64,000 nucleotides of DNA from Gammaproteobacteria bacterium (GCA_965221695.1 OZ244905.1:3360001-3424000), one strand, 5' to 3'. Counted from the stretch's first letter, positions 14,198 to 41,879 are shown. Notes: generated from the sequence alone by a model not told the origin. Translations and numbers: made by a program.

Positions 14198-14252
14198 ATC
14201 ACCCGAAAAGGGTTATCTTCACCTCTGGCCGTTATCACCCATCGTGGGTAAT
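14198..14252. promoter_or_regulatory. Two copies of a candidate activator-binding palindrome upstream of the hydantoin/DUF917 operon
   Basis: ATCACCC-GAAAA-GGGTTAT (14198-14216) and ATCACCC-ATCGT-GGGTAAT (14234-14252), 36 bp apart. Confidence 0.5.
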
Positions 14253-14413: not shown

Positions 14414-15127
14414 ATGAAACATGAAATTCGGCTATGTGTGCCGATTACCACTGAAGGGTTGCGCCTGGAGGAAGACGTACAAGGTCATGGAGGCCATGAT
14501 ACCCTCATCAGTGTGCGTATACTAAAGGAAGGACCACCCTCGATAGAAAGCCATGTTGATGAATTGCTCGCCGTTCCCGATCTCATTCGCTTGGCCAGGG
14601 AAGCAGAGGAAGAAGGAGTCGATGCAGTCATCATAGATTGCATGGGTGACCCTGGCCTTAGCGCGGTCAGGGAGGCCGTTTCCATTTCTGTTTATGGTCC
14701 CGCACAGACATCCATGCATGTGGCTTCCATACTGGGTCGCCGATTCGGAGTCGTCACTGTTCTAAAACGCTTGCATCCACTGATACGCGAGCTGGCGGTG
14801 CATTATGGTGTTGAGCGTAGCATGGTCTCTCCCCGTTCAGTGGAGATTCCCGTTCTGGAAATCGAAAAGGAACCGGAACGCCTACAGCAATTGTTTATCA
14901 AGGAAGCAATAAAAGCGGTGGAGCAGGAAGATGCGGACGTTATCATCCTCGGCTGTACCGGATTTTATGGCATGACAGAGAAGATTGAAGCGGGGTTAAA
15001 GGATGCCGGTATTGAGGGTGTCCCCGTACTTGACCCCATACCGGTAACGATCGAATTCGCTGCTGCCATGTTGCATAGCAATCTCTCACATAGCAAGCGG
15101 GCATTCCCGATACCACGGGAGAAATAG
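14414..15127 (+). CDS. Asp/Glu/hydantoin racemase family protein
   Basis: GPPSIES, DAVIIDCMGDPG, IILGCTG (two catalytic Cys), HSKRAFP; GGGGAG RBS before ATG 14414. Confidence 0.9.
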   Translation: MKHEIRLCVPITTEGLRLEEDVQGHGGHDTLISVRILKEGPPSIESHVDELLAVPDLIRLAREAEEEGVDAVIIDCMGDPGLSAVREAVSISVYGPAQTSMHVASILGRRFGVVTVLKRLHPLIRELAVHYGVERSMVSPRSVEIPVLEIEKEPERLQQLFIKEAIKAVEQEDADVIILGCTGFYGMTEKIEAGLKDAGIEGVPVLDPIPVTIEFAAAMLHSNLSHSKRAFPIPREK

Positions 15128-15132
15128 ACTAG

Positions 15133-16704
15133 ATGCGCATAGGCGTTGATGTTGGTGGTACTAATACTGATGCCGTGCTGATGAATGGCGCAGAAGTACT
15201 TGCCACCAACAAGTCACCTACTACCGAAGATATCAGCAGTGGCATAGTCGCGGCTATTCGTTCCTTGCTCGAAGGAAGTGAAATATCAGCCGCTGAAATT
15301 GAGCAGGTCATGATCGGGACTACTCATTTTACCAATGCTTTTGTTGAGTGTCGTGATCTGCGGGAAGTGGGGATACTCCGGCTGGGCCTCCCGGCAACAG
15401 CGGCCATTCCACCTCTGACGGACTGGCCGGACGATCTCGCAGACGCTATGGGGCGTCACATCTATCTGGTCGATGGCGGATATGAGTACGACGGTCGCGA
15501 AATTTCGTCGTTTAACGAAAAGCAGGTAATGAAGGCCGCCCGTGATTTGCGATCGAACTGTATTGAGGCTGTGGCTATCTCCTGCGTCTTCTCAACGGTA
15601 AACGGCGCCATGGAAGCACGAGCTGCCGAGATACTGCGCAATGAATTACCAGGTGCATTCATCGCCTGTTCCAGCGATATAGGTAGCACAGGACTTCTGG
15701 CGCGGGAAAATGCCACGATCATCAACTGTAGCCTTTCAACATTAGCTGGCCAAGTCATGGAGTCCTTCAGTGACGCACTGAACTGTCTCGGTATCCAAGC
15801 GCCCTTGTACATAAGCCAGAACGACGGCACGCTTATGAATGCTGATTTTGCCGCCCGTTTTCCAGTGTTGACCTTCGCTTCAGGCCCCACCAACAGCATG
15901 CGTGGGGCGGCCTATTTATCCGGTGAGAAGAATGCCATCGTGGTCGATATTGGTGGGACTACCTCGGATGTGGGCATGTTGACAAACGGCTTTCCGCGAC
16001 AGACCGCCTCTGAAGTCAGATTCAGCGGTGTGCGCACGAATTTTCGTATGCCGGACATCCTTTCCATCGGGTTGGGTGGGGGTAGTATCGTGCGCCTGAA
16101 TGATCCCGTGAGCATCGGTCCCGACTCAGTAGGATATGAGCTATTGCAGGAAGCGCTCATTTTTGATGGTTTCACGTTAACTGCTACCGATGTCTCCGTT
16201 GCATTGCACAAACTGGATATCGGTGACTCATCCAAGGTGGAGCATCTGGACAAAAAACTCTTGGGTGACTGTAGCGATATCATCCACGATTGTCTGGACA
16301 CAGCCATTGATCGTATTAAGGCCAATGCGGAAGCGTTGCCCGTCGTACTGGTGGGCGGTGGTAGCATCCTTGTTCAGCGTTCGCTTGCACGGGCCTCCAT
16401 GATGATCACACCAGACCATTTCGAAGTGGCCAATGCTATCGGCGCCTCCATCGCCCAGATAAGTGGCGACGTCGACAATGTCTACACATATGAATCAATT
16501 AATCGCGAACAGGCGCTTGAGGCGGCAAAGGCCGAGGCAACCCGGAACGCTATTAATGCCGGCGCTGAGGAGGAGAGTATAGAAATCGTGATGTTGGAAG
16601 AGATCCCTCTTGCCTATATGCCGGGTGGAGCGGTGAGGGTGCAGGTGAAAGCAGTCGGCGAATTAGCGAATTCCGTTACAGAGGATTCAGGAAATGGAAA
16701 TTAA
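15133..16704 (+). CDS. Hydantoinase/oxoprolinase family protein (short HyuA-like form)
   Basis: RIGVDVGGTNTDAV, GTTHFTNA, SQNDGTL, SGPTNSMRGA, VDIGGTTSD, ANAIGA. Confidence 0.9.
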   Translation: MRIGVDVGGTNTDAVLMNGAEVLATNKSPTTEDISSGIVAAIRSLLEGSEISAAEIEQVMIGTTHFTNAFVECRDLREVGILRLGLPATAAIPPLTDWPDDLADAMGRHIYLVDGGYEYDGREISSFNEKQVMKAARDLRSNCIEAVAISCVFSTVNGAMEARAAEILRNELPGAFIACSSDIGSTGLLARENATIINCSLSTLAGQVMESFSDALNCLGIQAPLYISQNDGTLMNADFAARFPVLTFASGPTNSMRGAAYLSGEKNAIVVDIGGTTSDVGMLTNGFPRQTASEVRFSGVRTNFRMPDILSIGLGGGSIVRLNDPVSIGPDSVGYELLQEALIFDGFTLTATDVSVALHKLDIGDSSKVEHLDKKLLGDCSDIIHDCLDTAIDRIKANAEALPVVLVGGGSILVQRSLARASMMITPDHFEVANAIGASIAQISGDVDNVYTYESINREQALEAAKAEATRNAINAGAEEESIEIVMLEEIPLAYMPGGAVRVQVKAVGELANSVTEDSGNGN

Positions 16705-17803
16705 GTCATCGGATATTGAAAACCTTGCGCGGGGCGCTGCCTTCCTCGGTTCCGGCGGCGGGGGAGATCCCTATATCGGCGGCTTGTTGCTGGAAAAGGC
16801 CATCGAAGTTGGACAACCACCGACAATTATTTCAATCGACGATATCGGTGATGATGCTGTGGTAGTACCAATTGCCATGATGGGGGCGCCGACGGTCATG
16901 CTGGAGAAACTACCTAATGGCGCTGAGCCCGAAAAGGTCTTGCGCCGTTTTGAAGAACGTCTGGGCAAACGGGCAACCGCTCTGGTAGCAGCCGAAATTG
17001 GTGGTTTGAATGCGCTTCTTCCGCTTATCGCCGCTGCCCGTCTCGGACTTCCCGTCGTCGACGGTGACGGTATGGGCCGCGCTTTCCCTGAATTGCAGAT
17101 GGTTACTTTTAACATTTTCGGTGTGCCCATCACGCCTATGATTATGACGGACGAGCATGGTAATACCGTAGCCGTGGACTGTGCCAAGGGTGAAGATGCT
17201 GAACGCATTGCCAGGCATATAGTAATTTCCATGGGTGGGGCAAGCCACATCTGCCTTTATTCCATGACTGGCCGACAAGCGAAGGATAGTATCGTCAGAG
17301 ATACACTAAGTTTGGCCTTAGGGATAGGCGAGAGTATAAGTTCAGCCCGTACCTCGTCTACTGACCCTGTCAATTCCCTGATCGATTACTTGCGTTCAAC
17401 GACCTATTACAAAAACTGTGGTGAAGTTTTCAACGGCAAGATCGTCGATCTGCTCAGGGAAACCAGGCGCGGCTTCGCTATCGGTCGGGTCATCATAGAA
17501 AGTGTCAATCGATCATCAGACTATTTGGAAATCGAATTCCAGAATGAAAACCTGATTGCCAGGATAAGTGGCGAGACCCGGGTTATCGTGCCGGACCTTA
17601 TTTGTATTGTTGAACAGGACACCGCGGAACCCATAACCACCGAATCCCTACGCTACGGGCAGCGAGTCAGGGTTATTGGTGTGGGCGCCGCGCCCATTAT
17701 GCGTACCGATGCAGCGCTCCATATATTCGGACCTGATAAGTTCGGCTACGACGAACCGTTCATACCGGTGGAGGATTTAAATGATTTTCATACTGATTTA
17801 TAA
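16694..17803 (+). CDS. DUF917 family protein (thiohydantoin desulfurase-like)
   Basis: GAAFLGSGGGGDP, MMGAPTV..EK, EIGGLN, VDGDGMGRAFPELQM, FQNENL, PDLI, TESLRYGQRV. Confidence 0.88.
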   Translation: MEIKSSDIENLARGAAFLGSGGGGDPYIGGLLLEKAIEVGQPPTIISIDDIGDDAVVVPIAMMGAPTVMLEKLPNGAEPEKVLRRFEERLGKRATALVAAEIGGLNALLPLIAAARLGLPVVDGDGMGRAFPELQMVTFNIFGVPITPMIMTDEHGNTVAVDCAKGEDAERIARHIVISMGGASHICLYSMTGRQAKDSIVRDTLSLALGIGESISSARTSSTDPVNSLIDYLRSTTYYKNCGEVFNGKIVDLLRETRRGFAIGRVIIESVNRSSDYLEIEFQNENLIARISGETRVIVPDLICIVEQDTAEPITTESLRYGQRVRVIGVGAAPIMRTDAALHIFGPDKFGYDEPFIPVEDLNDFHTDL

Positions 17804-17827
17804 CAAACAATTTAACGGGGTTAACTT

Positions 17828-20035
17828 ATGAAAAATTCTGAGAAAAACTCAAGTTGGGTGGGACTCACACTACTCGCCATGACATTTTTATTGCCGGACA
17901 AGGTATTCGCGGAGAATGTACTCGAAGAGATCACCGTTACTGCAAGGCGGCGCCAGGAGTCGTTACAGGAAGTACCGGTTTCCGTTTCTGCGTTCACCAA
18001 ATCTGCGTTGGAGGAGCGTTCCCTCACGGACCTCGGCGACATCGATCAGTTCATTCCGAACCTGGTCCACACTGAAGGACTCGCCGGTGGTAGCAGCGGG
18101 CAATATCGTATTCGCGGCGCCGGTCAGGACGACTTCGTTACCACCAATGAACCCTCGGTAGGTATCTACTTGGATGGCGTTTATATCGGCCGGGTTGCGG
18201 GCGCAGCCTTGGATTTGCTGGATATCGACCGTGTCGAGGTTATGCGCGGCCCCCAAGGTACCTTGTACGGTCGCAATACAATCGGTGGTGCGGTCAATGT
18301 CATCACCAAGGATCCTGACAATCAATTTGGTGGCTACGTGGAAGGTGTATATGGCTCTCGTGACCGCTTCGATTTCCTCGGCAGCGTGAATATACCAATA
18401 ATAGAGGATATGCTCGCCATCCGCGCTGCCTATGTCCATCATGAAGAAGACGGTTGGATCGATAGCCTGGACAACGGACGCACCTTTGGCGATGAAAACA
18501 GGGACGGCGTACGCATCTCCGGTCTTTTTACGCCCAACCAACAGTTCAGACTCCGGTTCAGCGCTGACTACACAAAGGATGACGGCGAAGCGGACCCCAG
18601 TTCGGCAACGCGTATAGAACCGACTTCCTTTATCCCACCCAATTTCGCTGTTCCGGAAAATAATGAAAACACTTATTCGGGTTTTCGTCCGGGCAATAAC
18701 GCTGAAGTATGGGGGGTGGCTGCTGACTGGACATGGGACTTCGGTCCTGGCTCCTTGCGTTCCATTTCTTCTTATCGTGACCTTGAACATCTCTCCGGAA
18801 TCGATTTTGACGGCACACCGTTTAACTTTTTCGACCAGTTGAACACTGTGGTACAGGACCAGTTCAGCCAGGAATTACACCTTCTGGGCAATTTCATGGA
18901 AGGTCGTGTCGATTACCTTCTGGGCGGATTTTACTTCAGCGAGGATATCACCGGGACATTCCATTATCCTCTGGGACCGGTTATGCTTGAGGAGCAGAAT
19001 GTAATTGATAATAGCAGCGTTGCTGTGTTCTTTAATGTGGATTTTGCGCTAACAAACCGCTTCAATCTCGGTGGCGGCGTGCGATATACTGAAGAAGACA
19101 GGGATATATTCTATAACCACAATTTCCAGGCGCCTGGACCCAATGGTGTCGTAAATGGCTTCCTCACCCAGCCACTTACGGATATCGTAGCCGTCATGCC
19201 TGCCTATCCCCCCGGAACAGATCTGGACCGGAAGCTGAGTTTCAATGCAACCACATGGCGGGTGTCAGCAGATTTTGACCTGAATGACGATATAATGCTC
19301 TTTGCATCCATCTCAGAGGGATTCCGCTCCGGCGGCTTCAATGGCAGACCCTTCGGTAATCCACTGGCATTGACGACTTTTGGTCCCGAGACCCTGCGTT
19401 CCTATGAGCTTGGTTTCAAGTCAGACCTGGCAGGTGGCCGCCTGCGTTTGAATGGCGCCATCTTCTTCTCAGATTACACCGACATGCAGTTCTCGGCCAT
19501 CCTTGCAGGCAGCCCAAGCGTCGTGACCGACAATGCCGGTGAGGCGGAGATACTCGGTGTGGAGTTCGAAGGCCACGCCAACCTCACAGATGCCTTTCTC
19601 CTGGATTTCAGTATTGGCTACATGGATGCTGAGTTTACCCAGCTTGAGCCGGGTGTGGTTGCCAACGGCATCGACCTGAATGATCCTATTGGTCTGACAC
19701 CCGAATGGTCATATAACATCGGTGGGCGCTACGAACATAGCGTGGGAGATTTTGGGACCCTGACGGCAAGGATTGACTACTCCTATACTTCAAAATACCC
19801 CTTTTTGCCGCAAGCCAACGAATTCGACTTTCAAGAGGGTTTCGGGCTCGCCAACCTGAATATTTCATTCGAACCAACAAACGAGAACTGGCAACTGAGC
19901 ATTTATGGTACTAACATCTTTAACGAGGAGTACAGCTACTTCAAGGAAGATCTGCGTCTAACCTTTCTCGGACATGTGTTGGACTTTCCGGCGCCCGGTG
20001 ATGAGTGGGGGATCAGGATGGCATACCGTTTCTAG
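17828..20035 (+). CDS. TonB-dependent receptor
   Basis: Signal peptide, LEEITVTARRR, EVMRGPQGTLYGRNTIGGA, C-terminal YRF. Confidence 0.95.
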   Translation: MKNSEKNSSWVGLTLLAMTFLLPDKVFAENVLEEITVTARRRQESLQEVPVSVSAFTKSALEERSLTDLGDIDQFIPNLVHTEGLAGGSSGQYRIRGAGQDDFVTTNEPSVGIYLDGVYIGRVAGAALDLLDIDRVEVMRGPQGTLYGRNTIGGAVNVITKDPDNQFGGYVEGVYGSRDRFDFLGSVNIPIIEDMLAIRAAYVHHEEDGWIDSLDNGRTFGDENRDGVRISGLFTPNQQFRLRFSADYTKDDGEADPSSATRIEPTSFIPPNFAVPENNENTYSGFRPGNNAEVWGVAADWTWDFGPGSLRSISSYRDLEHLSGIDFDGTPFNFFDQLNTVVQDQFSQELHLLGNFMEGRVDYLLGGFYFSEDITGTFHYPLGPVMLEEQNVIDNSSVAVFFNVDFALTNRFNLGGGVRYTEEDRDIFYNHNFQAPGPNGVVNGFLTQPLTDIVAVMPAYPPGTDLDRKLSFNATTWRVSADFDLNDDIMLFASISEGFRSGGFNGRPFGNPLALTTFGPETLRSYELGFKSDLAGGRLRLNGAIFFSDYTDMQFSAILAGSPSVVTDNAGEAEILGVEFEGHANLTDAFLLDFSIGYMDAEFTQLEPGVVANGIDLNDPIGLTPEWSYNIGGRYEHSVGDFGTLTARIDYSYTSKYPFLPQANEFDFQEGFGLANLNISFEPTNENWQLSIYGTNIFNEEYSYFKEDLRLTFLGHVLDFPAPGDEWGIRMAYRF

Positions 20036-20055
20036 TACTAGTATGGGTATCTCCA

Positions 20056-21039
20056 ATGGATAAAGGCATTGGCGTGCTGATTCCTGATACGACACCGCCA
20101 GCAAATATCGGGGATCTCTGCAGGCAGGTGGAGGCATGGGATTATGACGAAATCTGGGTCAGTGAAGATTATTTCTTCAATGCAGGTATTTCCAGCGCAG
20201 CGCTGGCCCTCCAGGCAACGAATATTATACCTGTCGGTATTGGCATTTTATCCGCCGTAGTTCGGCATCCTGCCGTGACAGCCATGGAGCTTGCTACTTT
20301 GGCTGGCGCATTCCCGGGGCGTCTCAGAGCAGGGATCGGTCACGGCGTACCCGCTTGGACCAGTCAGATGGGCCTCACTCCGGAAAACCGCTTGGCTACC
20401 CTGCGGGAGGTAATCACGAGTATACGTCGCCTGTTGGCCGGTGAACTCCTGGACCAGACTGACGGACGCTTTCAGTTCAATGGCGTCAAACTCACCCAAC
20501 CGGTCGAGAATGTGTCTCTCTACGCAGGCGTCATCGGACCACAATCTCTTGCCTTGTCGGGGGAGATAGCCGATGGCACTGTATTATCCATAATGGCGGG
20601 GGCAAAGTATTTGGCTTATGCGCGGGACAATATCAATCGAGGGATGGAAAAAGCCGGACGTTCCGGAACACATCCTCTGCCAACCTACACCTTGTATTTG
20701 GTTGACAATGATCGTCAGCGCGCGCGCGGGGCTGGCCGGCAAGCGCTCTCAATGCTCATGAGCGCTTTTGGCTCCAGCCAGTTGACAGGTGTGTATGGCA
20801 TCAATGATCAACTGGAAGACATGATCACACGCGGTGGTCCCGAGGTGATTGCAAATGAGATGCCTGATGAGTGGTTGGATTGGTTCATGGTGGTTGGCGA
20901 ACCGGAGGAATGTGCCGACGGGATCAGTCGCCTGCACAGGGCAGGAGCGTCATCGGTAGTCCTTATGCCATTGGCGATAGAAGATATTATGGCGCAACTC
21001 AGGCTCACATCCGATAAAGTATTGCCATGTTTAAGTTGA
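20056..21039 (+). CDS. LLM-class (luciferase-like) flavin-dependent oxidoreductase
   Basis: IWVSEDY, GIGIL....RHP...AMELATL, GRLRAGIGHG, GP..LALSGEIADG. Confidence 0.85.
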   Translation: MDKGIGVLIPDTTPPANIGDLCRQVEAWDYDEIWVSEDYFFNAGISSAALALQATNIIPVGIGILSAVVRHPAVTAMELATLAGAFPGRLRAGIGHGVPAWTSQMGLTPENRLATLREVITSIRRLLAGELLDQTDGRFQFNGVKLTQPVENVSLYAGVIGPQSLALSGEIADGTVLSIMAGAKYLAYARDNINRGMEKAGRSGTHPLPTYTLYLVDNDRQRARGAGRQALSMLMSAFGSSQLTGVYGINDQLEDMITRGGPEVIANEMPDEWLDWFMVVGEPEECADGISRLHRAGASSVVLMPLAIEDIMAQLRLTSDKVLPCLS

Positions 21040-21060
21040 TACACTAGCTGCGAAACAGAA

Positions 21061-21942
21061 TTGAGGCCCGGTTTGCGATTTATCAGCGTACAGACCATTT
21101 CTGATGCCCTGTCAGCGCTCGCCCGCCATGGTGATGGCGCTACGGTCCTGGCCGGGGGTACTGATGTGATGATCCAATTAGGCCGCAAAGAACTCGAAAC
21201 AGAAGCTCTGATACATATCGAGGCTCTGAATGAGTTGAAGACGATTCAGTCTTTAAATGACCGGGTGGAGATTGGCGCATTGACCACTCATCGATCCATC
21301 GCGATGATGGCCTTCCCGCTCGCCCTATACAAATCGCTCCGCTCGGCTGCAGCCTCAGTGGGGAGTTGGCAGACTCAGTCAGTGGGAACTATCGGTGGTA
21401 ATATCTGTAATGCTTCACCGGCGGCAGATATGCTGCCGCCTCTACTTGTCCACGATGCTCAGTTGCGGTTGCGCAGCGAGGCGCGGGGTGAGCGCACAAT
21501 TTCTATCAATGATTTTTTGCTGGGACGCCGGCATACGGCACGGAAGTCAGATGAGCTTCTAACCCATATCACCATTGATGCCGTTCCGGAGAGAAGCGCG
21601 GATGTGTACTTGAAAGTGGGACGGCGAGGCGCAATGGAAGTCGCTATTGTCGGGCTGGCCCTGCGGCTGACAATGGATGAGGAACCTGAACTGATTAGTG
21701 ATCTACGCATTGCTACTTGCGCAACAGGTCCGATTTCTTGCCGGGCGACGGAGGCAGAGGCTGTCCTCAGGGGACAACGCTGGTCCCAAGAGCGTATTTC
21801 CGAAGCAGGTGAAGTCCTTTGTAGAGAGATCAGCCCTATCGATGATGTACGCGGAAGCGCCGCTTACCGTTTGATGGTATTGCCGCGACTGCTGCAACAT
21901 GCGATGAGCCAGTGTTTGGAGAAAATCCAGTCTCCACCATAA
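21061..21942 (+). CDS. Xanthine dehydrogenase family FAD-binding subunit (CoxM-like)
   Basis: LAGGTD, IGALTT, GTIGGNICNASPAAD, PIDDVRGSAAYR. Confidence 0.9.
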   Translation: MRPGLRFISVQTISDALSALARHGDGATVLAGGTDVMIQLGRKELETEALIHIEALNELKTIQSLNDRVEIGALTTHRSIAMMAFPLALYKSLRSAAASVGSWQTQSVGTIGGNICNASPAADMLPPLLVHDAQLRLRSEARGERTISINDFLLGRRHTARKSDELLTHITIDAVPERSADVYLKVGRRGAMEVAIVGLALRLTMDEEPELISDLRIATCATGPISCRATEAEAVLRGQRWSQERISEAGEVLCREISPIDDVRGSAAYRLMVLPRLLQHAMSQCLEKIQSPP

Positions 21943-21963
21943 GAAGAAGCAGGTTAGCAAACT

Positions 21964-22440
21964 ATGCAACGCATAAAACTCAAGGTAAACGGTAGACAGG
22001 AGGAAGTCTCGGTAAACGATACTGAAACGCTGCTGGACATGCTGCGAGGACAACTCCACTTAACCGGCACAAAGGATGGTTGTCGCGAAGGCGAATGTGG
22101 CGCCTGCACTGTCCTCATAGATAACTTGCCCGTCGATGCCTGTATCTATCCTGCTATGGCAGCGGCTGGCCGGGATGTGGAGACTATTGAAGGCATTGGT
22201 AACAGCGCTCATCCTACACTATTGCAGCAGGCGTTGGTGGAGTGCGGTGGACTGCAATGTGGTTTCTGTACGCCGGGGATTATCATGATCCTGACCGCGT
22301 TATTAAGGGAAAACCCGACACCTTCTCCCGAACAAGTGAAGGAGTCTCTGTCAGGCAATCTGTGCCGTTGCACTGGTTATATCCAGGTTGAAGAAGCCTT
22401 GGTCAAGACCGTTGGGCGACAGAAGGAGGTAATAGCATAA
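21964..22440 (+). CDS. Xanthine dehydrogenase family 2Fe-2S subunit (CoxS-like)
   Basis: GTKDGCREGECGACTV, QCGFCTPG, GNLCRCTGY. Confidence 0.95.
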   Translation: MQRIKLKVNGRQEEVSVNDTETLLDMLRGQLHLTGTKDGCREGECGACTVLIDNLPVDACIYPAMAAAGRDVETIEGIGNSAHPTLLQQALVECGGLQCGFCTPGIIMILTALLRENPTPSPEQVKESLSGNLCRCTGYIQVEEALVKTVGRQKEVIA

Positions 22441-24731
22441 TGTCTGTGATCGGTGAAGCGTTGCCGCGTACGGATGGACTTGCAAAGGTCACCGGCGAAG
22501 CGATCTATACGGTGGATTACTCTGAGACTGGCATGCTTCATGGTTGCCTGCTGCGTTCACCCATCGTTAGCGGCCGTATTAAGCATATAGATATATCGAA
22601 GGCCGCGGCGATGCCCGGTGTCCGAGCAGTGGTAACTGCCGAGGAGGCTCCCAAGGGATTGGCAGGTATGATTATTCTCGATCAACCCCTGTTCGCCTCC
22701 GATACGATTCGCTACGAAGGAGAACCTGTCGCCGCGGTGGCCGCCGACACATTGCACCAGGCCCAGGCAGCGGTAGCAATCATAGATATAGATTATGAAG
22801 AACTGCCCGGTGTGACAGATATGCAGGCGGCCTTGGCGGACGATGCCCCTCTGGTTCACCCCCGATGGGAATCCTATTGCCGCGCCCCTATGGCAGCGCA
22901 AGCTGATCTTCGTCGTGAGGGTAATATCGTTGGTGAACTCATCGCCAATCCGGAAGGCGTCGATGAGGCTTTTGAACGTGCTTATATCATCGTAGAAGAC
23001 GAATTCGAAGTCAGTCGTCAATACCAGGCCTATCTCGAACCCATGAGTGCAGTAGTCACTTACAGTGAGGGCCGTTACACAGTGCACACAGGCAGTCAGT
23101 TTTCTTTCAATATTCGCGATGAGTTATCCCAGTATTTGGGTGTGCGACCTTCAAATATACGGGTTATAGGCAAAACAGTTGGCGGTGGTTTTGGGGCCAA
23201 GTTGGGTTGCGGGACCGAACAGTACGCGGCCGTGTTGTCGAAGGCGGCGGGTGGCCGTCCGGTCAAAGTGATAAAGGATAGAAGCGAAGACATTATCACC
23301 GCGCCGTGCAGAGAAAATGTTTGCATGCGTATACGCTCTGCTATTGACAAGGATGGAAATATCACAGGTAGAGAGTTTAGCTGTGATTTTGACAGTGGCG
23401 CATATGCTATTGAGACTCCTTTTTTTCCCAGTATTGCCCTACACTTCGCCGCCGGGGTCTACCGCGTTGGGCCAACAAGGGTGACTGGCCGTGCCGTTTA
23501 TACCAACACCGCGCCAACTGGCGCCTTTCGGGGCGTATCCGGTCCTCATATCTATCTGGCAGTGGAAAGACACATGGATCACATTGCCAGCAAGTTGGGC
23601 ATTGACCGCCGGCAATTTCGTTTACGCCATTTATTTCAGGACGGAGATAGCCTGTTAAACGGTCAGGTTCTTGATGATGCGCACATACTGGAACAAGGAT
23701 TTTACGCTGTTGATAAAATAGCGCCTTGGGTCAACGTGAAGAAAAAGAAACAAAAATACCATGGCGTGGGTATTGCAGCAGCAATATGGTTAACCAATCC
23801 CTCACCGGGCAGCTTGACCCTAACCTTGGATGAGGACGAATCTGTACAGGTGGTTACGGCGGCTAATGACAATGGCTCCGGGGCGCTTACCATGGGTATC
23901 ACCCAGATTGTAGCCGAGGAGCTGGGTCTTCGGCCGGAAGATGTGAGGATCGCCTTCCCGGATACGGACACTTGTGGTTATGATGCTGGTTCACAGGGTA
24001 GTCGTACAACACATATCGTTGGTCGCGCTGCCATTGATGCCGCCGCTGAAGTTAAGGCAAAGATATTTGAAGTTGCTGCTGGTATGCTGGAGGCCAATAT
24101 CAATGATTTGGAGCTAGTGGAGGGAACAGTGGGTGTGGTGGGAGCGCCCGACTCCCGAATTTCCTTGGGACAAGTGGTCATGGCCGCCACCTATCAGGGT
24201 CGATCGGTGACCGGCGCTGGCGCCTATATGACACCGCCAGTGCCTTTCAATCCCAGTTGCGCAACTGGCTTGGTATTTCCGACTCTGCCCACTCCCACCT
24301 ACCACGTACATCAGGCGGAGGTAGAAGTGGACCCAATTACGGGAAATGTCCGCGTAGTACGCTATATTGTCGCCCAGGAAGTGGGCAAGGCCATCAATCC
24401 CGACGGTATCCGAGGTCAGGTCCAAGGCGGCGTGGTGCAGGGTCTTGGCCTGGCGCTTTACGAAAGCCTGCGACTGGAACGAGGGCGTTATAAGGAAAGA
24501 ACACTTGAGTCCTATCGCCTGCCGCTGGCCATTGATGTTCCTAATGTTGAAACTATTCTGCTGGAAAATGCTGACGAAGCAGGTCCTTTTGGCGCTAAGG
24601 GAGTGGCGGAACCTCCTATTGCTCTGGCGCCGGCAGTCATCGCCAATGCCGTCAGCGACGCCATAGGCAAACCCTTCAATAATATTCCCATCACACCGGA
24701 AGCAGTTCTCGCAGCGCTTGAAGACAAATAA
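22440..24731 (+). CDS. Xanthine dehydrogenase family molybdopterin-binding subunit
   Basis: KVTGEA.Y, GGGFGAK, GAFRG, GSQGSR, GQVQGG..QG.G, GAKGVAEP; lacks the CO dehydrogenase AYXCSFR loop. Confidence 0.92.
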   Translation: MSVIGEALPRTDGLAKVTGEAIYTVDYSETGMLHGCLLRSPIVSGRIKHIDISKAAAMPGVRAVVTAEEAPKGLAGMIILDQPLFASDTIRYEGEPVAAVAADTLHQAQAAVAIIDIDYEELPGVTDMQAALADDAPLVHPRWESYCRAPMAAQADLRREGNIVGELIANPEGVDEAFERAYIIVEDEFEVSRQYQAYLEPMSAVVTYSEGRYTVHTGSQFSFNIRDELSQYLGVRPSNIRVIGKTVGGGFGAKLGCGTEQYAAVLSKAAGGRPVKVIKDRSEDIITAPCRENVCMRIRSAIDKDGNITGREFSCDFDSGAYAIETPFFPSIALHFAAGVYRVGPTRVTGRAVYTNTAPTGAFRGVSGPHIYLAVERHMDHIASKLGIDRRQFRLRHLFQDGDSLLNGQVLDDAHILEQGFYAVDKIAPWVNVKKKKQKYHGVGIAAAIWLTNPSPGSLTLTLDEDESVQVVTAANDNGSGALTMGITQIVAEELGLRPEDVRIAFPDTDTCGYDAGSQGSRTTHIVGRAAIDAAAEVKAKIFEVAAGMLEANINDLELVEGTVGVVGAPDSRISLGQVVMAATYQGRSVTGAGAYMTPPVPFNPSCATGLVFPTLPTPTYHVHQAEVEVDPITGNVRVVRYIVAQEVGKAINPDGIRGQVQGGVVQGLGLALYESLRLERGRYKERTLESYRLPLAIDVPNVETILLENADEAGPFGAKGVAEPPIALAPAVIANAVSDAIGKPFNNIPITPEAVLAALEDK

Positions 24732-24878
24732 ATAGCTTAACCGGGATAGAAGTTCATTACTGTCCCTTTGGCTCTCTATATTCAACTCCTTTCAGCGCTG
24801 TTTCGAAGATGTGCTAGTATCGTAAGATAAGAAGCAGGAGTAGTAATTTCCAGTTGACTGAAATGTGTGTATACCCTT

Positions 24879-27602
24879 ATGCAGCATTCAAACCTGCTAA
24901 CTGAATCGAAGCTCAGACCGCCACTGTTGAAGCAGCAGACTATCCGGCGTTCAGCGTTAATTGCACAGCTTGACCAGGTCATGACCAGGAAGCTTGGAAT
25001 TGTGCATGCGCCGGCTGGATACGGGAAGACTACCATCCTTGAACAGTTCTACAATTACAGGGCTGATTCGGGTGTTGCTGTATCATGGCTGACTTTGGAT
25101 GAGGAAGATCAGTCTCCCGGCCGGTTGCTAAAGCATATCATCAGCGCCCTGGAGCGTTCGGGCCTGCCCCCCATTGAACTTGGAAGATATCACGAGCGCC
25201 ATCTGACCCATGCGACTCGTAAATCCATTATTGAGGAACTGATGAATTCGTTGTCAAGGGTTACTGGCGACAGGATTCTGTTTCTCGACGATTATGAAAA
25301 GGCAGATTCATCGGGAACCGGGCAAATCGTTACCGATTTGCTCCTGATGTTACCTGTAAACCTGCATATTGTCATTGCTACGCGACAACAACCCAAGCTG
25401 CCTTTGGGGACATTAAAACTGGATGATGAGTTGGTCCTCGTCGATGTTGACCAGATGCGATTCAGCGAGTCGGAAATCGAATCCTTTCTTGGAGGCATGA
25501 AGGAGGTCGCACTGACTGCCGAAGATATCACCACCCTGACTACCAAGACAGAAGGTTGGCCTATTACTCTAAACCTGATTAAAGTGTGGCAACAGAAGGG
25601 TGGCATTAACGCCGACCGTGTCAGGCAACTGTCTGGGGAAACTATCGAAATCGCGGATTATCTTTTTGAACAGGTATTCGATAGGCTGAGCGATGCGGAA
25701 AAGGAATTTGCCCTGGCTACTTCGGTACTGGACAGGTTAAATGGGGATATCGCCAATGCCCTGTGCCAGCGCACTGACTGCTGGAAGATCATTGAACAAT
25801 TCGAGGTCAAGGGGCTGTTCATAGTGCCTCTGGATGACAGACGTTCCTGGTATCGTTATCATTCGCTGTTCCGCGAATTCCTTTCACAACGGCTTTCCTG
25901 GAATGATTCGGGTCGGGTGTCGAAGTACCATATTGCTGCGGGAAGGTGGCTTGCCCGCCATGACGCCGCCGCTGAGGCAATCAGGCATTTTCTTACTGCG
26001 AATGAACCGGAACTGGCCGCTGAAACAGCCGCAGAAAAGGGTGGCTGGCAACTGATATGGAGTGGTCAATCAGCGCTGCTTAGTAAAGTCTGTGAATCTG
26101 TCCCTGAGAAAATCATTCAACAGCATGTTCGCCTCCATCTGGGGCAGATATATATGACAGCGCGTACAGGTGATGCGCAAAAGGCGGTCACTGACATGGA
26201 GGAACTCAAACAGGAAAGAAAAAATGAACTATCGTCAAATGCTACGCTGGCGGCTGAAGTGCAGACTGTTGAGGTTGTGCTGGCAGGCTATGCTGATCGT
26301 TGTTTGACTCAGCAGGAAATAGATGATCTGGAACGCGCCGCCAACGATGGCGTTCTCCTGGATGTCGCCTTGCTTGCAATGATTCATAATTACCTGTTGT
26401 TATCCTATATGGACACATGCCGCTTCGACCGCGCTCGTATTGAAGCGGACAAGGCTATTGCTTATTACCGTGCCTCGAAACATGATTTTGCCGTCGATTT
26501 GGTCAGGGTCCATGTAGCCCAGTCCTTGGTAGCCGAGGGCAGGTTATCCGACGCCGCCGTCCTGTGTGATATGCAACTGGAAAACGACAGTCGCCTGTTT
26601 AACGAAACCCAGGCGGTATTTCGTGTAATTGCTGCAGAAATTGCCTGTGAACGCAATAATCTTGAAAGGGCATCTTCACTATTGGACGATGTCGTCTCTT
26701 TCCTTGAGGAATACGGAAGCTGGTTCAATATTTACGCCAGTATGTACAGGACCGCAACCACGCTTGCACGAATCAATGAGGGTACTACTGCTGCTCTACA
26801 GATGCTGGAAAGGGCCAGGGCCACCGCAGCCCAGCGGCGAATCCTGCGACTTGAACGCTTTGCCGAATTGATGAGTGTCAGGGAACTTGCCTTAGCGGGC
26901 AGGACAGATGAGGCTGGGGAAATCCTGGCTGGTTTGGATAAATCCCTGTTGCTAGAAGATGATACTGGAAAAACGGACCTATCCTGGCATATTTACGAAG
27001 CGCCTGCCGCTATACAGATACGAGTTTCTCCTGATGTCAAGGTTTGTGAAAATCACCTGAACGCTCTGGATGTCACCATCAATAAAGCACAACAACATGG
27101 GTGCGCACGCCAGCTTATCAGCGCCCTTAACCTGCGGGCCCTGATCGCGGCAAAATTGGAGCACGCGGAAGAAGCAGTACGGACACTGGAAAAGGCTCTC
27201 ACGTTGGCAACACAGGAAAGTTACCAGAGGGTATTTATCGATGAAGGGCGCCCTTTACAGGAATTATTAGAATCAACGTTAAAGAATAATGATCTGTTTC
27301 GGGAGCGGCATGAGCGATTCGCACGCACGATTCTGGCAGGTTTTAATCATCCCGCCGACTCGGGCAAACGTACTGGTACCGCAGCTCGCCTGACTGGTCG
27401 AGAGGTGGATGTGCTTGCTCTTATTGAATCCGGTTTATCCTCCAAGGAAATCGCTAATTCACTGGAACTTTCCGAGAACACGGTGAAGCACCACAGGAAG
27501 AATATCTATCGCAAACTGGGCGTCACCAGCCGTTCTCGTGCGATCGCTGAAGCTCGGCACCTGCAGCTTTTTTCAACTGAGGTCACTGGACATCCGGGAT
27601 AG
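24879..27602 (+). CDS. MalT-like large ATP-binding LuxR (LAL) transcriptional regulator
   Basis: SKLRPP, APAGYGKTT, WLTLDEED, TEGWP, WYRYHSLF, C-terminal LTGREVDVL...SENTVKHHRKNIYRKLGV. Confidence 0.92.
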   Translation: MQHSNLLTESKLRPPLLKQQTIRRSALIAQLDQVMTRKLGIVHAPAGYGKTTILEQFYNYRADSGVAVSWLTLDEEDQSPGRLLKHIISALERSGLPPIELGRYHERHLTHATRKSIIEELMNSLSRVTGDRILFLDDYEKADSSGTGQIVTDLLLMLPVNLHIVIATRQQPKLPLGTLKLDDELVLVDVDQMRFSESEIESFLGGMKEVALTAEDITTLTTKTEGWPITLNLIKVWQQKGGINADRVRQLSGETIEIADYLFEQVFDRLSDAEKEFALATSVLDRLNGDIANALCQRTDCWKIIEQFEVKGLFIVPLDDRRSWYRYHSLFREFLSQRLSWNDSGRVSKYHIAAGRWLARHDAAAEAIRHFLTANEPELAAETAAEKGGWQLIWSGQSALLSKVCESVPEKIIQQHVRLHLGQIYMTARTGDAQKAVTDMEELKQERKNELSSNATLAAEVQTVEVVLAGYADRCLTQQEIDDLERAANDGVLLDVALLAMIHNYLLLSYMDTCRFDRARIEADKAIAYYRASKHDFAVDLVRVHVAQSLVAEGRLSDAAVLCDMQLENDSRLFNETQAVFRVIAAEIACERNNLERASSLLDDVVSFLEEYGSWFNIYASMYRTATTLARINEGTTAALQMLERARATAAQRRILRLERFAELMSVRELALAGRTDEAGEILAGLDKSLLLEDDTGKTDLSWHIYEAPAAIQIRVSPDVKVCENHLNALDVTINKAQQHGCARQLISALNLRALIAAKLEHAEEAVRTLEKALTLATQESYQRVFIDEGRPLQELLESTLKNNDLFRERHERFARTILAGFNHPADSGKRTGTAARLTGREVDVLALIESGLSSKEIANSLELSENTVKHHRKNIYRKLGVTSRSRAIAEARHLQLFSTEVTGHPG

Positions 27603-27692: not shown

Positions 27693-28961
27693 TCACAACA
27701 ATGTAAAATCTGCTGAAAGCTTCGTCCAGTGGTCTCTCAGGACTTCCTTGTGCGGCTCATGCATGGGCAGGTCCCGCAACATGCCCGGCCACAGGTCTCG
27801 GGCTGCTGCCAGCGAATCAAGCAAATGCGTTCTCACAGCCGGCCACGGGACGTCTATCCGCTTACTCCAGGCTTGGAAATGTTCCAGGTTTATGGCATGC
27901 CATTTTTTCTGCTTACCAAGGTTTAACGCGATACCGGTTTCGCTCGGGACGTATGGCAGCGTCGACACGATATCGTAGGCAGGCGCCAGTTTCGTGTGTA
28001 CAGTGTCGGGATAAACCAGGGTCCAGTTCTTCAAGTGGGCATCGCCGTTGGCCAGCAGCACATTCACCAGCAGCCGGCGGGCCATCTGCTGGATATCTCC
28101 CAACCCATCCTCGCTGTAACGGTATAATGCCATGCCGACCTGTTCATAATTGCTCTTCCCGTACTTCTGATGGGGAAAAAACTCGAATACCTGCGCGAAG
28201 TCTTCCGTATGGATACGCCCCTGGGAGCTGCGGTCAAAACGGCGGATGACGTAGGCATGAGGCTCGTCCGGTAATTGGATTGCCGGAAGGTTCTCCAGTG
28301 TTTCCATTGAAATCAAATCTATCTCAGGGATTTGCACGCCTGCGGATTCAGCCAGTTTCATCGCGCTGTATTCATTTTCCGGCACATTACGGTGCAGCGT
28401 GGAAGGTGTTTTGACAATCCAGTCGTCAGTCCCGACCTTTGCGCTGATGTTATAGCGCCGGTCTCGCCAGGTAGTGGAAAATTTCATTTGCATCCCGGCC
28501 AGTGAAAACTTTTGCGCAACTGCGTGGGCATCAATTTGAACTGTCTGCGTCCTGCTCCTCGCAGACAATGACCATTCCGGAATCTCACCCGCGGGCACAG
28601 GCGCTGCAATGATGGCGCCGGGCAGGTTGTTTCCAACCCATGCCAGCAAAGGGAATTCGTTCTCCGGATGAATTCTCAATGCTTCGGATAACAGTTCCCG
28701 TAGAGCGCCTTCCGGCAACAGGTTGGACAGCACGGCCGGGATTCGTTGTGAACTGACCAGCGCCTTGTCCAGGTAGTTGGAGTTTGCTCTTTGGGTCAGC
28801 GTCATCGTGGGCCGGTCCTGTTCACGCAAAGCCTTGTAGTCCGGATCAAAGGTCAGGATATTTTTCCCGCCGGTGTGATGGGTGAGTATCCCAACCTTGC
28901 GCCCGTGCAAGGTCAGTTGCAACGCTTCAACAGATTCCATTTGCCCATTAATTTGCGACAT
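27693..28961 (-). CDS. hipA: HipA-family toxin kinase with N-terminal coupled domain
   Basis: SNLLPEG, FSLAGMQMK, NEY..MKLA, RRFDR, EDFAQ, NGDAHLKN, LAPAYD. Confidence 0.93.
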   Translation of the reverse strand: MSQINGQMESVEALQLTLHGRKVGILTHHTGGKNILTFDPDYKALREQDRPTMTLTQRANSNYLDKALVSSQRIPAVLSNLLPEGALRELLSEALRIHPENEFPLLAWVGNNLPGAIIAAPVPAGEIPEWSLSARSRTQTVQIDAHAVAQKFSLAGMQMKFSTTWRDRRYNISAKVGTDDWIVKTPSTLHRNVPENEYSAMKLAESAGVQIPEIDLISMETLENLPAIQLPDEPHAYVIRRFDRSSQGRIHTEDFAQVFEFFPHQKYGKSNYEQVGMALYRYSEDGLGDIQQMARRLLVNVLLANGDAHLKNWTLVYPDTVHTKLAPAYDIVSTLPYVPSETGIALNLGKQKKWHAINLEHFQAWSKRIDVPWPAVRTHLLDSLAAARDLWPGMLRDLPMHEPHKEVLRDHWTKLSADFTLL

Positions 28962-28963
28962 CG

Positions 28964-29296
28964 CTATTCGTCCTCGAATTCAGCCAGTAATGCAGACCAG
29001 GAGGAATCGCTGGCCTGATCCTGCCATTCATCAGCGGTTATGGCATCTAAGTCAAGCCGGCCCGACCGCAGCAAATTTTCCAGTTGTCGAGCTTGTTCGC
29101 GGGGTGCGATCAGCAGTTCCAGCCCCATTCCTTCCAGGACGCGAAAAAGCGTGGAAACCCGTATGTCATGACCCGCCTCAACGCGCTGGTATTGCTGTTG
29201 TGACATGCCGATTTTCATCCGCATATCCGATTGCTTCAATCCCAATTTGCGCCGGTGCTTCCCGATCATGGATGACAGTTCAATCAATGTTTTCAT
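28964..29296 (-). CDS. hipB: Xre/HipB-like antitoxin
   Basis: HTH RRKLGLKQSD...GMSQQQYQRVEAG...STLFRVL; 2 bp upstream of hipA. Confidence 0.85.
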   Translation of the reverse strand: MKTLIELSSMIGKHRRKLGLKQSDMRMKIGMSQQQYQRVEAGHDIRVSTLFRVLEGMGLELLIAPREQARQLENLLRSGRLDLDAITADEWQDQASDSSWSALLAEFEDE

Positions 29297-29447: not shown

Positions 29448-29774
29448 CGGGTCAGGACAGACGAATCCGGTAAGTCCGTCATCTCCGAGTTTGCAACGGT
29501 ACAGGTCTTCCGGGATGCCATCCGCGTCACGGTCAGGACCGCCACCGGCCGGACCGACCAGATCAGGGTGCATGCCGGCTTCATCGGTCATCCCCTGGCC
29601 AGTGACGGAAAATACGGAGACTGGGACTTCAACAAGAAACTGCGCGCGCTATGCCTGAAACGCATGTTCCTGCACGCCGGTAAACTGTCCGTGCCGGCAT
29701 TGAGAAAGACCGGAGAATACCGATTCAGCGTGCCGTTGCCGGATGACCTGGCAGAAGTATTAGCGCTATTGTGA
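29448..29774 (+). pseudogene. rluC: 3-prime remnant of an RluC/RluA-family pseudouridine synthase
   Basis: Manual translation RVRTDESGKS.ISEF...TGRTDQIRVHAGFIGHPLASDGKYGD..FNKKLR...LKRMFLHA...PLPDDL; GRTHQIR degenerated to GRTDQIR; no N-terminal half or HRLD motif. Confidence 0.8.
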
Positions 29775-30716: not shown

Positions 30717-30751
30717 CGTTGAGATTACCCTGGTTGTAAAAACTGATTATT

Positions 30752-32134: not shown

Positions 32135-32141
32135 TCTCCTG

Positions 32142-33254: not shown

Positions 33255-33344
33255 AAGTTGATTTCAGCTTGAATTTAAATCTTTGTTTCTCGTAACAGGC
33301 TAACTGGTCTGTGTTGCAGCAACTCGAAAAGAAGCCGATTACTG

Positions 33345-33950: not shown

Positions 33951-33965
33951 TTGTAAAAAACTAAT

Positions 33966-40618: not shown

Positions 40619-40621
40619 GGC

Positions 40622-41871: not shown

Positions 41872-41879
41872 CAAGTTGG

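What the first reader, a model, noticed from the sequence alone, without database searches (positions are those of the whole stretch)
14414..27602. Candidate new catabolic pathway for a (thio)imidazole/hydantoin-type heterocycle using a molybdenum hydroxylase
Seen: one tightly packed run of racemase, short HyuA-like protein, DUF917, TBDR, LLM oxidoreductase and a three-subunit Mo-hydroxylase, followed by a LAL regulator; no HyuB subunit. Known: DUF917 members act as thiohydantoin desulfurases in bacterial ergothioneine breakdown, where the ring is oxidised via ergothionase and thiourocanate hydratase. Neither of those is in this window. Xanthine-oxidase-family enzymes hydroxylate N-heterocycles. 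Inference: TBDR import, LLM/Mo-dependent ring oxygenation to a (thio)hydantoin, desulfuration, racemisation and ring opening, possibly finished by the carbamoylase at 39374. Thiohistidine-like metabolites (ergothioneine or ovothiol derivatives) are plausible but unproven substrates.
Basis: partly seen in the sequence, partly recalled or inferred. Interest (0 to 1): 0.7.

Follow-up and report, generated by a model that had tools for sequence, protein, structure and literature searches.

The report
Molybdenum–F420 ring-opening catabolic operon
These genes look like an undescribed bacterial route for eating a nitrogen-containing ring compound, in which a molybdenum enzyme and a cofactor-F420 enzyme prepare the ring and a two-protein, ATP-using enzyme cuts it open; the ring is probably related to cyclic dipeptides and probably not to ergothioneine.

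Summary
The operon is real. The molybdenum enzyme belongs to an uncharacterised subfamily that travels with DUF917 across phyla: 22 of 23 long-flank metagenome loci carry DUF917, 20 the short HyuA, and 14 an intact related LLM. The link is one-way: 0 of 48 HyuA/DUF917 loci picked independently carry this subfamily.

The ergothioneine/desulfurase reading is not supported. DUF917 scores 82 bits against a 440 cut-off, lies outside the desulfurase clade and has different putative active-site residues. The closed genome has only ordinary HutU/HutH. No carbamoylase occurs at any of the 75 loci.

DUF917 instead models as the partner of the short HyuA ATPase (ipSAE 0.82, best control 0.00). The LLM is Mer-like, the host makes F420, and two related operons sit beside F420 genes, so it is probably a reductase, not an oxygenase.

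Best reading: Mo hydroxylation, F420H2 reduction, epimerisation, then ATP-dependent opening of an amino-acid-type cyclic amide. The leading, untested substrate class is pyrazinone/pyrazine to diketopiperazine. This scan noted the HyuA–DUF917 pair, the diketopiperazine idea and a similar F420/Mo operon before, on other DNA.

The parts
14198..14250 (+). Two CACCC-N5-GGGT inverted repeats 36 nt apart upstream of the operon; candidate operator, picked by eye
   Evidence: Only pair under 150 nt apart among 53 strict matches in the genome; not seen upstream of 27 related loci
14414..15127 (+). Hydantoin/allantoin-racemase-family epimerase; both catalytic-Cys motifs present (DCMGDPG, GCTG)
   Evidence: PF01177; best PDB 3qvj, E 6e-28; motifs
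15133..16704 (+). Short HyuA-like actin-fold ATPase (523 aa), predicted ATP subunit of a heterodimeric ring hydrolase
   Evidence: PF05378/PF01968; ATP motifs intact; complex model
16694..17803 (+). DUF917 protein of the HyuA-linked clade, predicted hydrolytic subunit in place of HyuB; not a thiohydantoin desulfurase
17828..20035 (+). TonB-dependent receptor; accessory, reduced to a remnant in the closest relative
20056..21039 (+). Mer-like LLM oxidoreductase, probably F420-dependent
   Evidence: Best PDB hits are Mer, E 5e-33; best NCBIfam hit Mer 139 bits, below the 276 cut-off; host F420 genes
21061..21942 (+). FAD subunit (CoxM-like) of the Mo hydroxylase
   Evidence: PF00941, PF03450
21964..22440 (+). 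2x[2Fe-2S] subunit (CoxS-like)
   Evidence: PF00111, PF01799; Cys motifs
22440..24731 (+). Mo subunit (CoxL-like) of an uncharacterised xanthine-oxidase-family subfamily; signature Q194, L255, E/D325, V366, W450, N453, S480, E724
24867..27602 (+). MalT-like (LAL) LuxR regulator; travels with the HyuA-DUF917(-racemase-receptor) module rather than with the Mo enzyme
   Evidence: beside HyuA/DUF917 in 19 of 20 loci from related genomes, but in 1 of 75 Mo-subfamily loci

Best explanation
An inducible catabolic operon for a small nitrogen heterocycle. (1) The receptor imports it (inferred). (2) The three-subunit Mo hydroxylase puts a water-derived oxygen on a ring carbon next to nitrogen, making a cyclic amide (family chemistry; catalytic Glu retained). 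(3) The Mer-like LLM uses F420H2 to saturate the ring; an SDR fills this slot in other lineages (inferred). (4) The racemase inverts the alpha-carbon (family chemistry). (5) A HyuA-DUF917 heterodimer uses ATP to phosphorylate the lactim oxygen and hydrolyse the ring, with DUF917 replacing HyuB (complex modelled; chemistry inferred from caprolactamase). The product is an amino acid or dipeptide handled by peptidases and deaminating enzymes, not an N-carbamoyl amino acid. The leading substrate class is a pyrazinone or pyrazine converted to a 2,5-diketopiperazine. I put about 0.75 on the general scheme (Mo-made lactam, F420 redox step, ATP-dependent opening, no sulfur), about 0.45 on the statement with an amino-acid/dipeptide-type ring, and about 0.25 on pyrazin(on)es specifically.
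For: Co-conservation: 22 of 23 long-flank loci of the Mo subfamily carry DUF917 and 20 of 23 the short HyuA. They appear in several gene orders and with at least four DUF917 clades. The one Mo clade without DUF917 (8 congeners) has a classical HyuA+HyuB pair beside it in 7 of 8 loci, so either kind of ATP-dependent ring hydrolase accompanies the enzyme. Complex: ipSAE 0.82 against best control 0.00; runs share at least 83% of contacts; partner pLDDT at least 86; the mark was reached by 116 of 157 solved and 2 of 215 mismatched pairs, counts only rough here. The docking core, DUF917 residues 70-75, contains E71, present in 83 of 83 HyuA-linked and, by E[KR] motif, 0 of 16 stand-alone DUF917s. 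F420: the host has cofE, fbiC and fno. One genome places fno, cofE, cofD, cofC and fbiC right after DUF917-HyuA-HapK-LLM-CoxMSL (L126/L141), and another puts fbiC after CoxMSL-LLM (L105). An LLM of this type or one SDR family is present in 20 of 23 long loci. Products: no carbamoylase in 0 of 75 Mo loci or 0 of 16 annotated plasmid HyuA-DUF917 loci, against 6 of 8 true desulfurase loci. Xaa-Pro-dipeptidase-like M24 occurs in 18 of 75 and annotated peptidases in 6 of 16 plasmid loci. DUF917, racemases, peptidases and dipeptide transporters are enriched near cyclodipeptide oxidases (PMC11055893, passages).
Against: No activity is measured; the substrate is inferred from neighbours only. The window's operon holds no peptidase. 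The LLM is a deletion remnant in the closest relative (L034/L042, 79% CoxL) and absent in L091, so it is not always needed in cis. Racemase is present in only 3 of 75 Mo loci. 10 of 16 plasmid HyuA-DUF917 loci show no relevant peptidase. Four loci put the Mo enzyme beside a DUF917 that lacks E71 and has no HyuA in the fetched flank (L080, L085, L088, L103). NCS1 and PnrA-type nucleobase/nucleoside transporters occur at L091 and L101. The 75 loci are the best 80 of 234 matches and contain near-duplicates (21 groups at 70% identity). The direction of the F420 step is untested.
Confidence: 0.45

Rival explanations
1. Same enzymes, but the ring is an imidazole, imidazolone or nucleobase-like compound that is oxidised and reduced to a sulfur-free hydantoin or dihydropyrimidine, then opened to an N-carbamoyl product finished by an unlinked carbamoylase.
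For: The racemase is closest to hydantoin/allantoin racemases. NCS1 permeases recur beside HyuA-DUF917. The host has four M20 amidase homologues, one at 39374. PMC11055893 suggests DUF917s are hydantoinases.
Against: No M20 carbamoylase at 0 of 75 Mo loci and 0 of 16 plasmid loci. No nitrilase-family protein among the recurring families I scanned. The xanthine-binding positions are replaced (L255, I332, V366).
Confidence: 0.2
2. The route starts from a saturated cyclic amine or aminal. The F420 enzyme oxidises it to an iminium, the Mo enzyme turns that into a lactam, and HyuA-DUF917 opens it. Candidates are piperazinones, imidazolidinones and Pictet-Spengler adducts of amino acids.
For: Mer acts reversibly at an N-CH2-N/iminium centre (established knowledge). 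The congeners' version has a FAD-binding-4 oxidase, HyuAB and a methylamine/aromatic-amine-dehydrogenase-like pair, which fits a lactam that opens to an arylalkylamine.
Against: An NADPH:F420 oxidoreductase in the same run of genes (L126, L144) usually supplies F420H2, though it is reversible. The racemase is more simply explained after a reduction.
Confidence: 0.17
3. The window is a mosaic. LLM+CoxMSL were inserted into an existing regulator-HyuA-DUF917-receptor-racemase module and serve a parallel substrate.
For: The window's DUF917 groups with congeners' copies that have no Mo enzyme. The regulator and racemase rarely accompany the Mo subfamily (1 and 3 of 75). 0 of 48 independently picked HyuA/DUF917 loci carry this Mo subfamily.
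Against: The Mo subfamily has joined at least four different DUF917 clades and one HyuAB pair. The same fusion of modules is seen in L091 and L034/L042. Tight gene packing.
Confidence: 0.1
4. One reading: a thiohistidine-like compound is oxygenated to a thiohydantoin, desulfurated by DUF917, racemised, opened and decarbamoylated.
For: Same Pfam family as the desulfurases. One congener locus has a thiopurine S-methyltransferase directly after DUF917 (L031), and a Streptomycetaceae plasmid locus has a cysteine-synthase-family gene.
Against: 82 and 73 bits against cut-offs of 440 and 450. Separate clade. E101/D125/E133 are replaced and two His are present in the desulfurases. True desulfurases have urocanase-like, lyase-like and amidohydrolase neighbours and no short HyuA (4 of 4). 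The host has neither upstream enzyme.
Confidence: 0.05

Closest known systems
ATP-dependent lactamases/hydantoinases HyuA-HyuB (caprolactamase CapAB, 5-oxoprolinase, N-methylhydantoinase; PDB 6yra, 7hk5)
   Same: Actin-fold ATP subunit with both phosphate motifs. Two-subunit design in which the A subunit phosphorylates the lactim and the B subunit hydrolyses it at a metal (PMC8453981, passages).
   Different: The A subunit is about 170 aa shorter and matches only over about 360 residues at 27-31% identity. No HyuB. The partner is DUF917, whose only clear structural match is PDB 2o3i, a protein of unknown function (Z 39.3, rmsd 2.4 A over 339 residues).
Thiohydantoin and S-methyl-thiohydantoin desulfurases of ergothioneine catabolism (NCBIfam NF058529, NF058532; primary papers recalled, not read)
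   Same: Same Pfam domains; shared GGGG, MxG, NE and P motifs.
   Different: 25-29% identity, separate clade, different acidic/His residues, no HyuA-docking Glu, different neighbours.
Mo hydroxylase + ring hydrolase pathways: anaerobic indole-3-acetate (IaaIJK then ATP-dependent IaaCE), cotinine (CotA then CotB), nicotinate fermentation, reductive urate/2,8-dioxopurine route (all recalled; look-ups failed, one search listed nothing)
   Same: Same logic: Mo-dependent oxygen insertion beside ring nitrogen, sometimes a ring reduction, then hydrolytic opening.
   Different: I could not compare sequences with those enzymes directly. The Mo subunit passes no NCBIfam cut-off. The ring hydrolase is HyuA-DUF917, and the redox partner is a Mer-like F420 enzyme.
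4-Hydroxybenzoyl-CoA reductase alpha subunit (PDB 1rm6) and xanthine dehydrogenases
   Same: Best solved match (E 5e-86); Gln and catalytic Glu of the Mo site kept.
   Different: 472 bits against a 995 cut-off. The FAD subunit is 293 aa and matches the HcrB model in two stretches, consistent with no 4Fe-4S insertion (inferred). Purine-binding Glu/Arg/Phe are replaced by Leu/Ile/Val (residue roles recalled).
Mer (F420-dependent methylene-H4MPT reductase) branch of the LLM family
   Same: The top six PDB hits are Mer; 14 of the 16 NCBIfam hits are Mer or F420-class models plus the F420 hydroxymycolate dehydrogenase.
   Different: Below every cut-off; catabolic context in a gammaproteobacterium.

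Membership tests
Thiohydantoin desulfurase (NF058529) / S-methyl form (NF058532) | Score above curated cut-off (440 / 450 bits) | tested here: not met
   81.6 and 72.6 bits; control L121 scores 593
Thiohydantoin desulfurase | Same clade and putative active-site residues | tested here: not met
   FastTree of 99 sequences, midpoint root, no clade test; E101, D125, E133 vs Q, V/G, T, and His in desulfurases
Ergothioneine catabolic pathway | Ergothionase and thiourocanate hydratase in the cluster or genome | tested here: not met
   One urocanase (HutU 947 bits; thiourocanate model 692, below 930) and one HutH in a hut operon of a one-contig genome
Thiohydantoin desulfurase | Sulfide release from a thiohydantoin | not testable with these tools
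   Needs an assay
HyuA/HyuB ATP-dependent lactamases | Actin-fold ATP motifs in the A subunit | tested here: met
   DVGGTNTD, DIGGTTSD, GPTNS, GLGGGS, VGGG, ANAIGA; conserved in 63 homologues
HyuA/HyuB ATP-dependent lactamases | A HyuB (PF02538) subunit as partner | tested here: not met
   None in the window; DUF917 models as the partner
Xanthine-oxidase-family Mo hydroxylases | FAD, 2x[2Fe-2S] and Mo subunits; catalytic Glu and sulfido-site Gln; XdhC chaperone in genome | tested here: met
Xanthine dehydrogenase / 4-hydroxybenzoyl-CoA reductase / CO dehydrogenase equivalogs | NCBIfam cut-offs and substrate-site residues | tested here: not met
   Best 472/995, 426/780, 307/950; L255, I332, V366
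F420-dependent LLM reductases (Mer branch) | Nearest relatives F420-dependent, and host makes F420 | tested here: met
   linked F420 genes at L126/L141 and L105
Mer equivalog | Cut-off 276/349 bits | tested here: not met
   139 and 129 bits
Hydantoin racemase family | Two catalytic cysteines in family motifs | tested here: met
Hydantoin utilisation pathway (hydantoinase + racemase + carbamoylase) | Carbamoylase conserved with the cluster | tested here: not met
   0 of 75 and 0 of 16 loci; positive control 6 of 8. An unlinked carbamoylase is not excluded.
Diketopiperazine hydrolase (no characterised family found in my searches) | Opens cyclic dipeptides | not testable with these tools
   Neighbour evidence only

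The most novel reading that the evidence does not exclude
This is the missing gene set for bacterial breakdown of pyrazines and pyrazinones. One or two Mo hydroxylations give a 2,5-dihydroxypyrazine, F420H2 reduces it to a diketopiperazine, a racemase sets the stereocentres, and a new ATP-dependent HyuA-DUF917 hydrolase releases a dipeptide. Lineage-specific tail enzymes would reflect the side chain: alanine dehydrogenase at L126; KDG-kinase-like plus KDPG aldolase plus aminotransferase at L044/45/47/50, as expected for sugar-derived fructosazines; a PLP dehydratase-like enzyme and prolidase-like M24 in the large marine group, seven of whose loci show a second copy of the Mo subfamily.
Probability: 0.25. 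Interest if true: 0.85.

Novelty: new variant of a known kind. Interest (0 to 1): 0.63.

Why it matters
It links three uncharacterised enzymes into one testable pathway. The first is a Mo-hydroxylase subfamily found under Gammaproteobacteria, Pseudonocardia, Acidimicrobiia, Binatia and other names. The second is a Mer-like F420 enzyme, which offers a reason for F420 synthesis in proteobacteria. The third is a widespread ATPase-DUF917 pair that would be a new architecture of ATP-dependent amide hydrolase. It also shows that the Pfam name 'S-Me-THD-like' should not be read as desulfurase activity for this clade. If the substrate class is right, it would supply genes for cyclic-dipeptide and pyrazine turnover; a 2026 review states that no biodegradation pathway is described for methoxypyrazines (PMC13039779, passages). 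A route to experiments exists: the Mo subunit of locus L036 (LLM-DUF917-HyuA-CoxMSL) is identical to a protein named Pseudonocardia thermophila, and P. dioxanivorans CB1190 has an 85% identical one.

Tried and rejected
(2) 400 phylum genomes and the plasmid collection held no Mo subunit above 43% identity (only two candidates per genome were scored). (3) Carbamoylase, amidinotransferase-like, DUF1989, PrpD-like and PuuE-like neighbours of the window: none at 0 of 75 Mo loci, so I rejected them as parts. (4) The nitroreductase beside a Rhizobium HyuA-DUF917 cluster was not shown to be a cyclodipeptide oxidase, so I dropped it as evidence. (5) The palindrome upstream of the operon was not found upstream of 27 related loci. 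The sigma-70/terminator scan gave nothing beyond shuffles for promoters, 11 against 14.5. (6) Fold searches of the DUF917 model gave only 2o3i as a clear match. (7) No RNA holder listed. (8) Literature: DUF917 gave 6 papers, 4 listed. Searches listed nothing. Searches listed no paper describing this cluster, judged from titles and abstract starts. Three look-ups of recalled ids were not held. Most subscription papers are outside this library, so absence from print is not shown. No supplements were read; the gene-cluster supplements of PMC11055893 may bear on the diketopiperazine idea. (9) In one search I first counted two LLM remnants (L034, L042) and one 68-aa match (L081) as present (17 of 23); the recount at 120 aa or more gives 14 of 23.
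Full report
1. Observation. No HyuB, urocanase or aromatic-amino-acid lyase was found among the 49 window ORFs scanned. Contigs of two public runs reproduce the cluster with few differences. The host genome is one contig of 3.54 Mb, 96.85% complete.

2. Is the cassette conserved? Among 22 congeners, 17 have DUF917 (best 46-53% identity) and 8 have this Mo subunit (60-61%), but never together. That alone would have refuted the link. A metagenome scan with an alignment of the Mo subunit changed the picture: it gave 75 loci, the best 80 of 234 confirmed matches. 42 of 75 carry DUF917 and 42 a short HyuA; many of the rest are short contigs. Of the 23 loci with at least 3.5 kb on each side and 10 kb in all, 22 have DUF917, 20 the short HyuA and 14 an intact LLM at 38% identity or more. 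At 70% identity the loci, congeners included, form 21 groups. Of the 12 groups with a long-flank member, 11 have DUF917; the exception is the congener group, which has a classical HyuA+HyuB pair in 7 of 8 loci. Gene order varies, and the linked DUF917s fall in at least four clades. The reverse does not hold: 0 of 48 HyuA/DUF917 loci picked without regard to the Mo enzyme carry this subfamily (20 from related genomes, 2 own paralogues, 10 from the phylum sample, 16 hand-picked of 127 plasmid records), and 3 have another Mo enzyme. So HyuA-DUF917 is a general ring-opening module and the Mo enzyme a feeder into it. The counts are not corrected for kinship.

3. DUF917 is not the desulfurase. It scores 82 and 73 bits on the two desulfurase models (cut-offs 440, 450). 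Eight of 400 phylum genomes hold a member above cut-off. The four I fetched with wide flanks sit with a urocanase-like hydratase and an amidohydrolase, three also with a lyase and a carbamoylase, and none with a short HyuA. They are 25-29% identical to the window protein and form a separate clade. E101, N106, D125, N284 and E285 are invariant in 83 of 83 HyuA-linked DUF917s; the desulfurases differ at 101, 106 and 125 and carry histidines instead. The host's single urocanase and lyase are HutU and HutH in a hut operon.

4. DUF917 as partner of the short HyuA. The three DUF917 genes of the host each follow a 513-523-aa HyuA, as do those at 16 of 16 plasmid loci viewed. The complex model scores 0.82 against a best control of 0.00, with at least 83% shared contacts and partner pLDDT of at least 86. 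The mark was reached by 116 of 157 solved and 2 of 215 mismatched pairs; those counts are rough here because my own alignments were used. I found no like complex: the only DUF917 structure is 2o3i. The tightest contacts are DUF917 residues 70-75. E71 is present in 83 of 83 HyuA-linked sequences, while the E[KR] motif is absent from 16 of 16 stand-alone ones (two of these were assigned by clade). The ATP motifs of HyuA are intact. By analogy with caprolactamase, where the A subunit activates the lactim and the B subunit hydrolyses it at a metal (PMC8453981, passages), DUF917 would be the hydrolytic subunit. This step is modelled and inferred, not shown.

5. The LLM is probably an F420 enzyme. 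Its best solved relatives are Mer and nearly all NCBIfam hits are F420-class, all below cut-off. The host has cofE above cut-off, and fbiC and fno homologues. In G440 an operon of the same layout, with a more distant Mo enzyme and LLM, continues into fno, cofE, cofD, cofC and fbiC; L105 has fbiC after CoxMSL-LLM. Where the LLM is missing, one SDR family is often present; one or the other occurs in 20 of 23 long loci. The three exceptions are L091 and the closest relative, L034/L042, where LLM and receptor are deletion remnants.

6. The Mo enzyme. It keeps the Gln and catalytic Glu of the family and passes no named cut-off. Against the host's own XdhB-type paralogue, the purine-binding Glu, Arg and Phe positions hold Leu255, Ile332 and Val366 (roles recalled). 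Q194, L255, W450 and N453 are invariant in 63 of 63 subfamily sequences and 8 of 8 congeners.

7. What ring? A hydantoin route needs a carbamoylase: none was found at 0 of 75 Mo loci or 0 of 16 plasmid loci, while 6 of 8 desulfurase loci gave a hit. Recurring neighbours are instead a prolidase-like M24 (18 of 75; best PDB hits Xaa-Pro dipeptidases), a threonine-synthase-like PLP enzyme (15), an aminotransferase (8), KDG-kinase-like (5) and KDPG aldolase (4) genes, and peptide-type ABC systems. Beside HyuA-DUF917 elsewhere I found an Xaa-Pro dipeptidase above cut-off (L134), M19 dipeptidases (L133), an isoaspartyl peptidase with a dipeptidase, and minimal permease-DUF917-HyuA operons in Lactiplantibacillus and Parageobacillus. 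A paper on cyclodipeptide oxidases reports DUF917, hydantoin racemases, AroM, peptidases and dipeptide transporters enriched in their clusters, and itself suggests hydantoin or purine chemistry (10.1101/2023.09.25.559410 and PMC11055893, passages). PMC6061476 remarks that many oxoprolinase-annotated genes may be cyclic-dipeptide hydrolases (passages). These points favour an amino-acid-derived cyclic amide, most simply a diketopiperazine. A Mo hydroxylation plus a two-electron reduction is what converts a 3,6-dialkylpyrazin-2-one into one (chemical inference). Against this: 10 of 16 plasmid loci show no relevant peptidase, the window has none in the operon, racemase is rare at Mo loci (3 of 75), and nucleobase-type transporters appear at some loci.

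8. Comparison with what is known. It works like the recalled Mo-hydroxylase-plus-ring-hydrolase routes for indole-3-acetate, cotinine, nicotinate and urate. It is not a member of the ergothioneine pathway, of the HyuA/HyuB family in the strict sense, or of any named Mo equivalog. Ten literature searches listed no description of the cluster, but the library lacks most subscription papers. Earlier notes of this scan already described the HyuA-DUF917 pair, the diketopiperazine idea and a similar F420/Mo operon on other DNA; they are unchecked and not independent support. What this locus adds is the counted link of one Mo subfamily to the pair, the HyuAB replacement in one clade, the complex model with its marker residue, and a named cultured host for testing.

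9. Verdict. Observation confirmed; interpretation partly supported. New variant of a known kind of pathway, with an uncharacterised enzyme architecture at its core. Interest 0.63.

Noticed in passing
L006-L013 (8 congeners): The Mo subfamily (60-61%) sits divergent from SnoaL, a FAD-binding-4 oxidase, an LLM and a classical HyuA+HyuB. On the other side lie a receptor, an LLM, a hydrolase, a methylamine/aromatic-amine-dehydrogenase-like pair and a Rieske oxygenase. This fits a lactam that opens to an arylalkylamine.
   Followed up: partly
L001 (G000:C1:1317158-1329926) and L019, L025, L027: A second HyuA-DUF917 operon with a divergent MalT-like regulator, receptor, MOSC-FNR-2Fe2S fusion, NCS1 permease and a phenylpyruvate/indolepyruvate decarboxylase above cut-off; suggests an aromatic-amino-acid-derived, possibly N-hydroxy, ring.
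   Followed up: partly
L004 (G000:C1:2521265-2527657): Decayed copy: regulator, 141-aa HyuA fragment, receptor, racemase; no DUF917.
   Followed up: partly
L126/L141 (G440:C18): DUF917-HyuA-HapK-LLM-CoxMSL (37%) runs on into fno, an AsnC-type gene, cofE, cofD, cofC and fbiC; a peptide-type ABC system and alanine dehydrogenase lie on the other side.
   Followed up: yes
L044, L045, L047, L050: Mo subfamily clusters carrying a KDG-kinase-like PfkB, KDPG aldolase above cut-off and a class I aminotransferase; suggests a sugar side chain.
   Followed up: partly
L080, L085, L088, L103: A DUF917 clade without E71 and without HyuA in the fetched flank, directly after the Mo subunit; DUF1177 and DHDPS-family genes nearby in some.
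   Followed up: partly
L144 (G130:C7): A more distant Mo enzyme (36%) in a run with peptidase S51, an aspartase/fumarase-family lyase, aldehyde dehydrogenase and Fno, next to a Mer-like LLM and DUF1177.
   Followed up: partly
L162 (G003:C1:2823000-2836000): Receptor, two related LLMs (41-42%), HapK-like gene, NCS1 and a distant Mo enzyme (37%), without DUF917.
   Followed up: partly
L031:10306-13013: Thiopurine S-methyltransferase and a bis-PGD Mo oxidoreductase directly after HyuA-DUF917 in one congener.
   Followed up: no
window 27693-29296: HipA kinase plus HTH antitoxin pair right after the regulator.
   Followed up: no
window 29766-36197: Minus-strand run: receptor, DUF1989, YkvI-like membrane protein (Atlas 0.98), MmgE/PrpD-family and PuuE-like deacetylase; another nitrogen-compound catabolic unit.
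   Followed up: partly
window 39374-43508: M20 amidase, amidinotransferase/DDAH-like protein and a TPP enzyme of family PRK08266; not conserved with the Mo cassette.
   Followed up: partly
G000 whole genome: 16 HyuB matches, 13 CoxL-like ORFs, 71 receptor-like ORFs and F420 genes in 3.54 Mb: a specialist in ring-compound scavenging.
   Followed up: no
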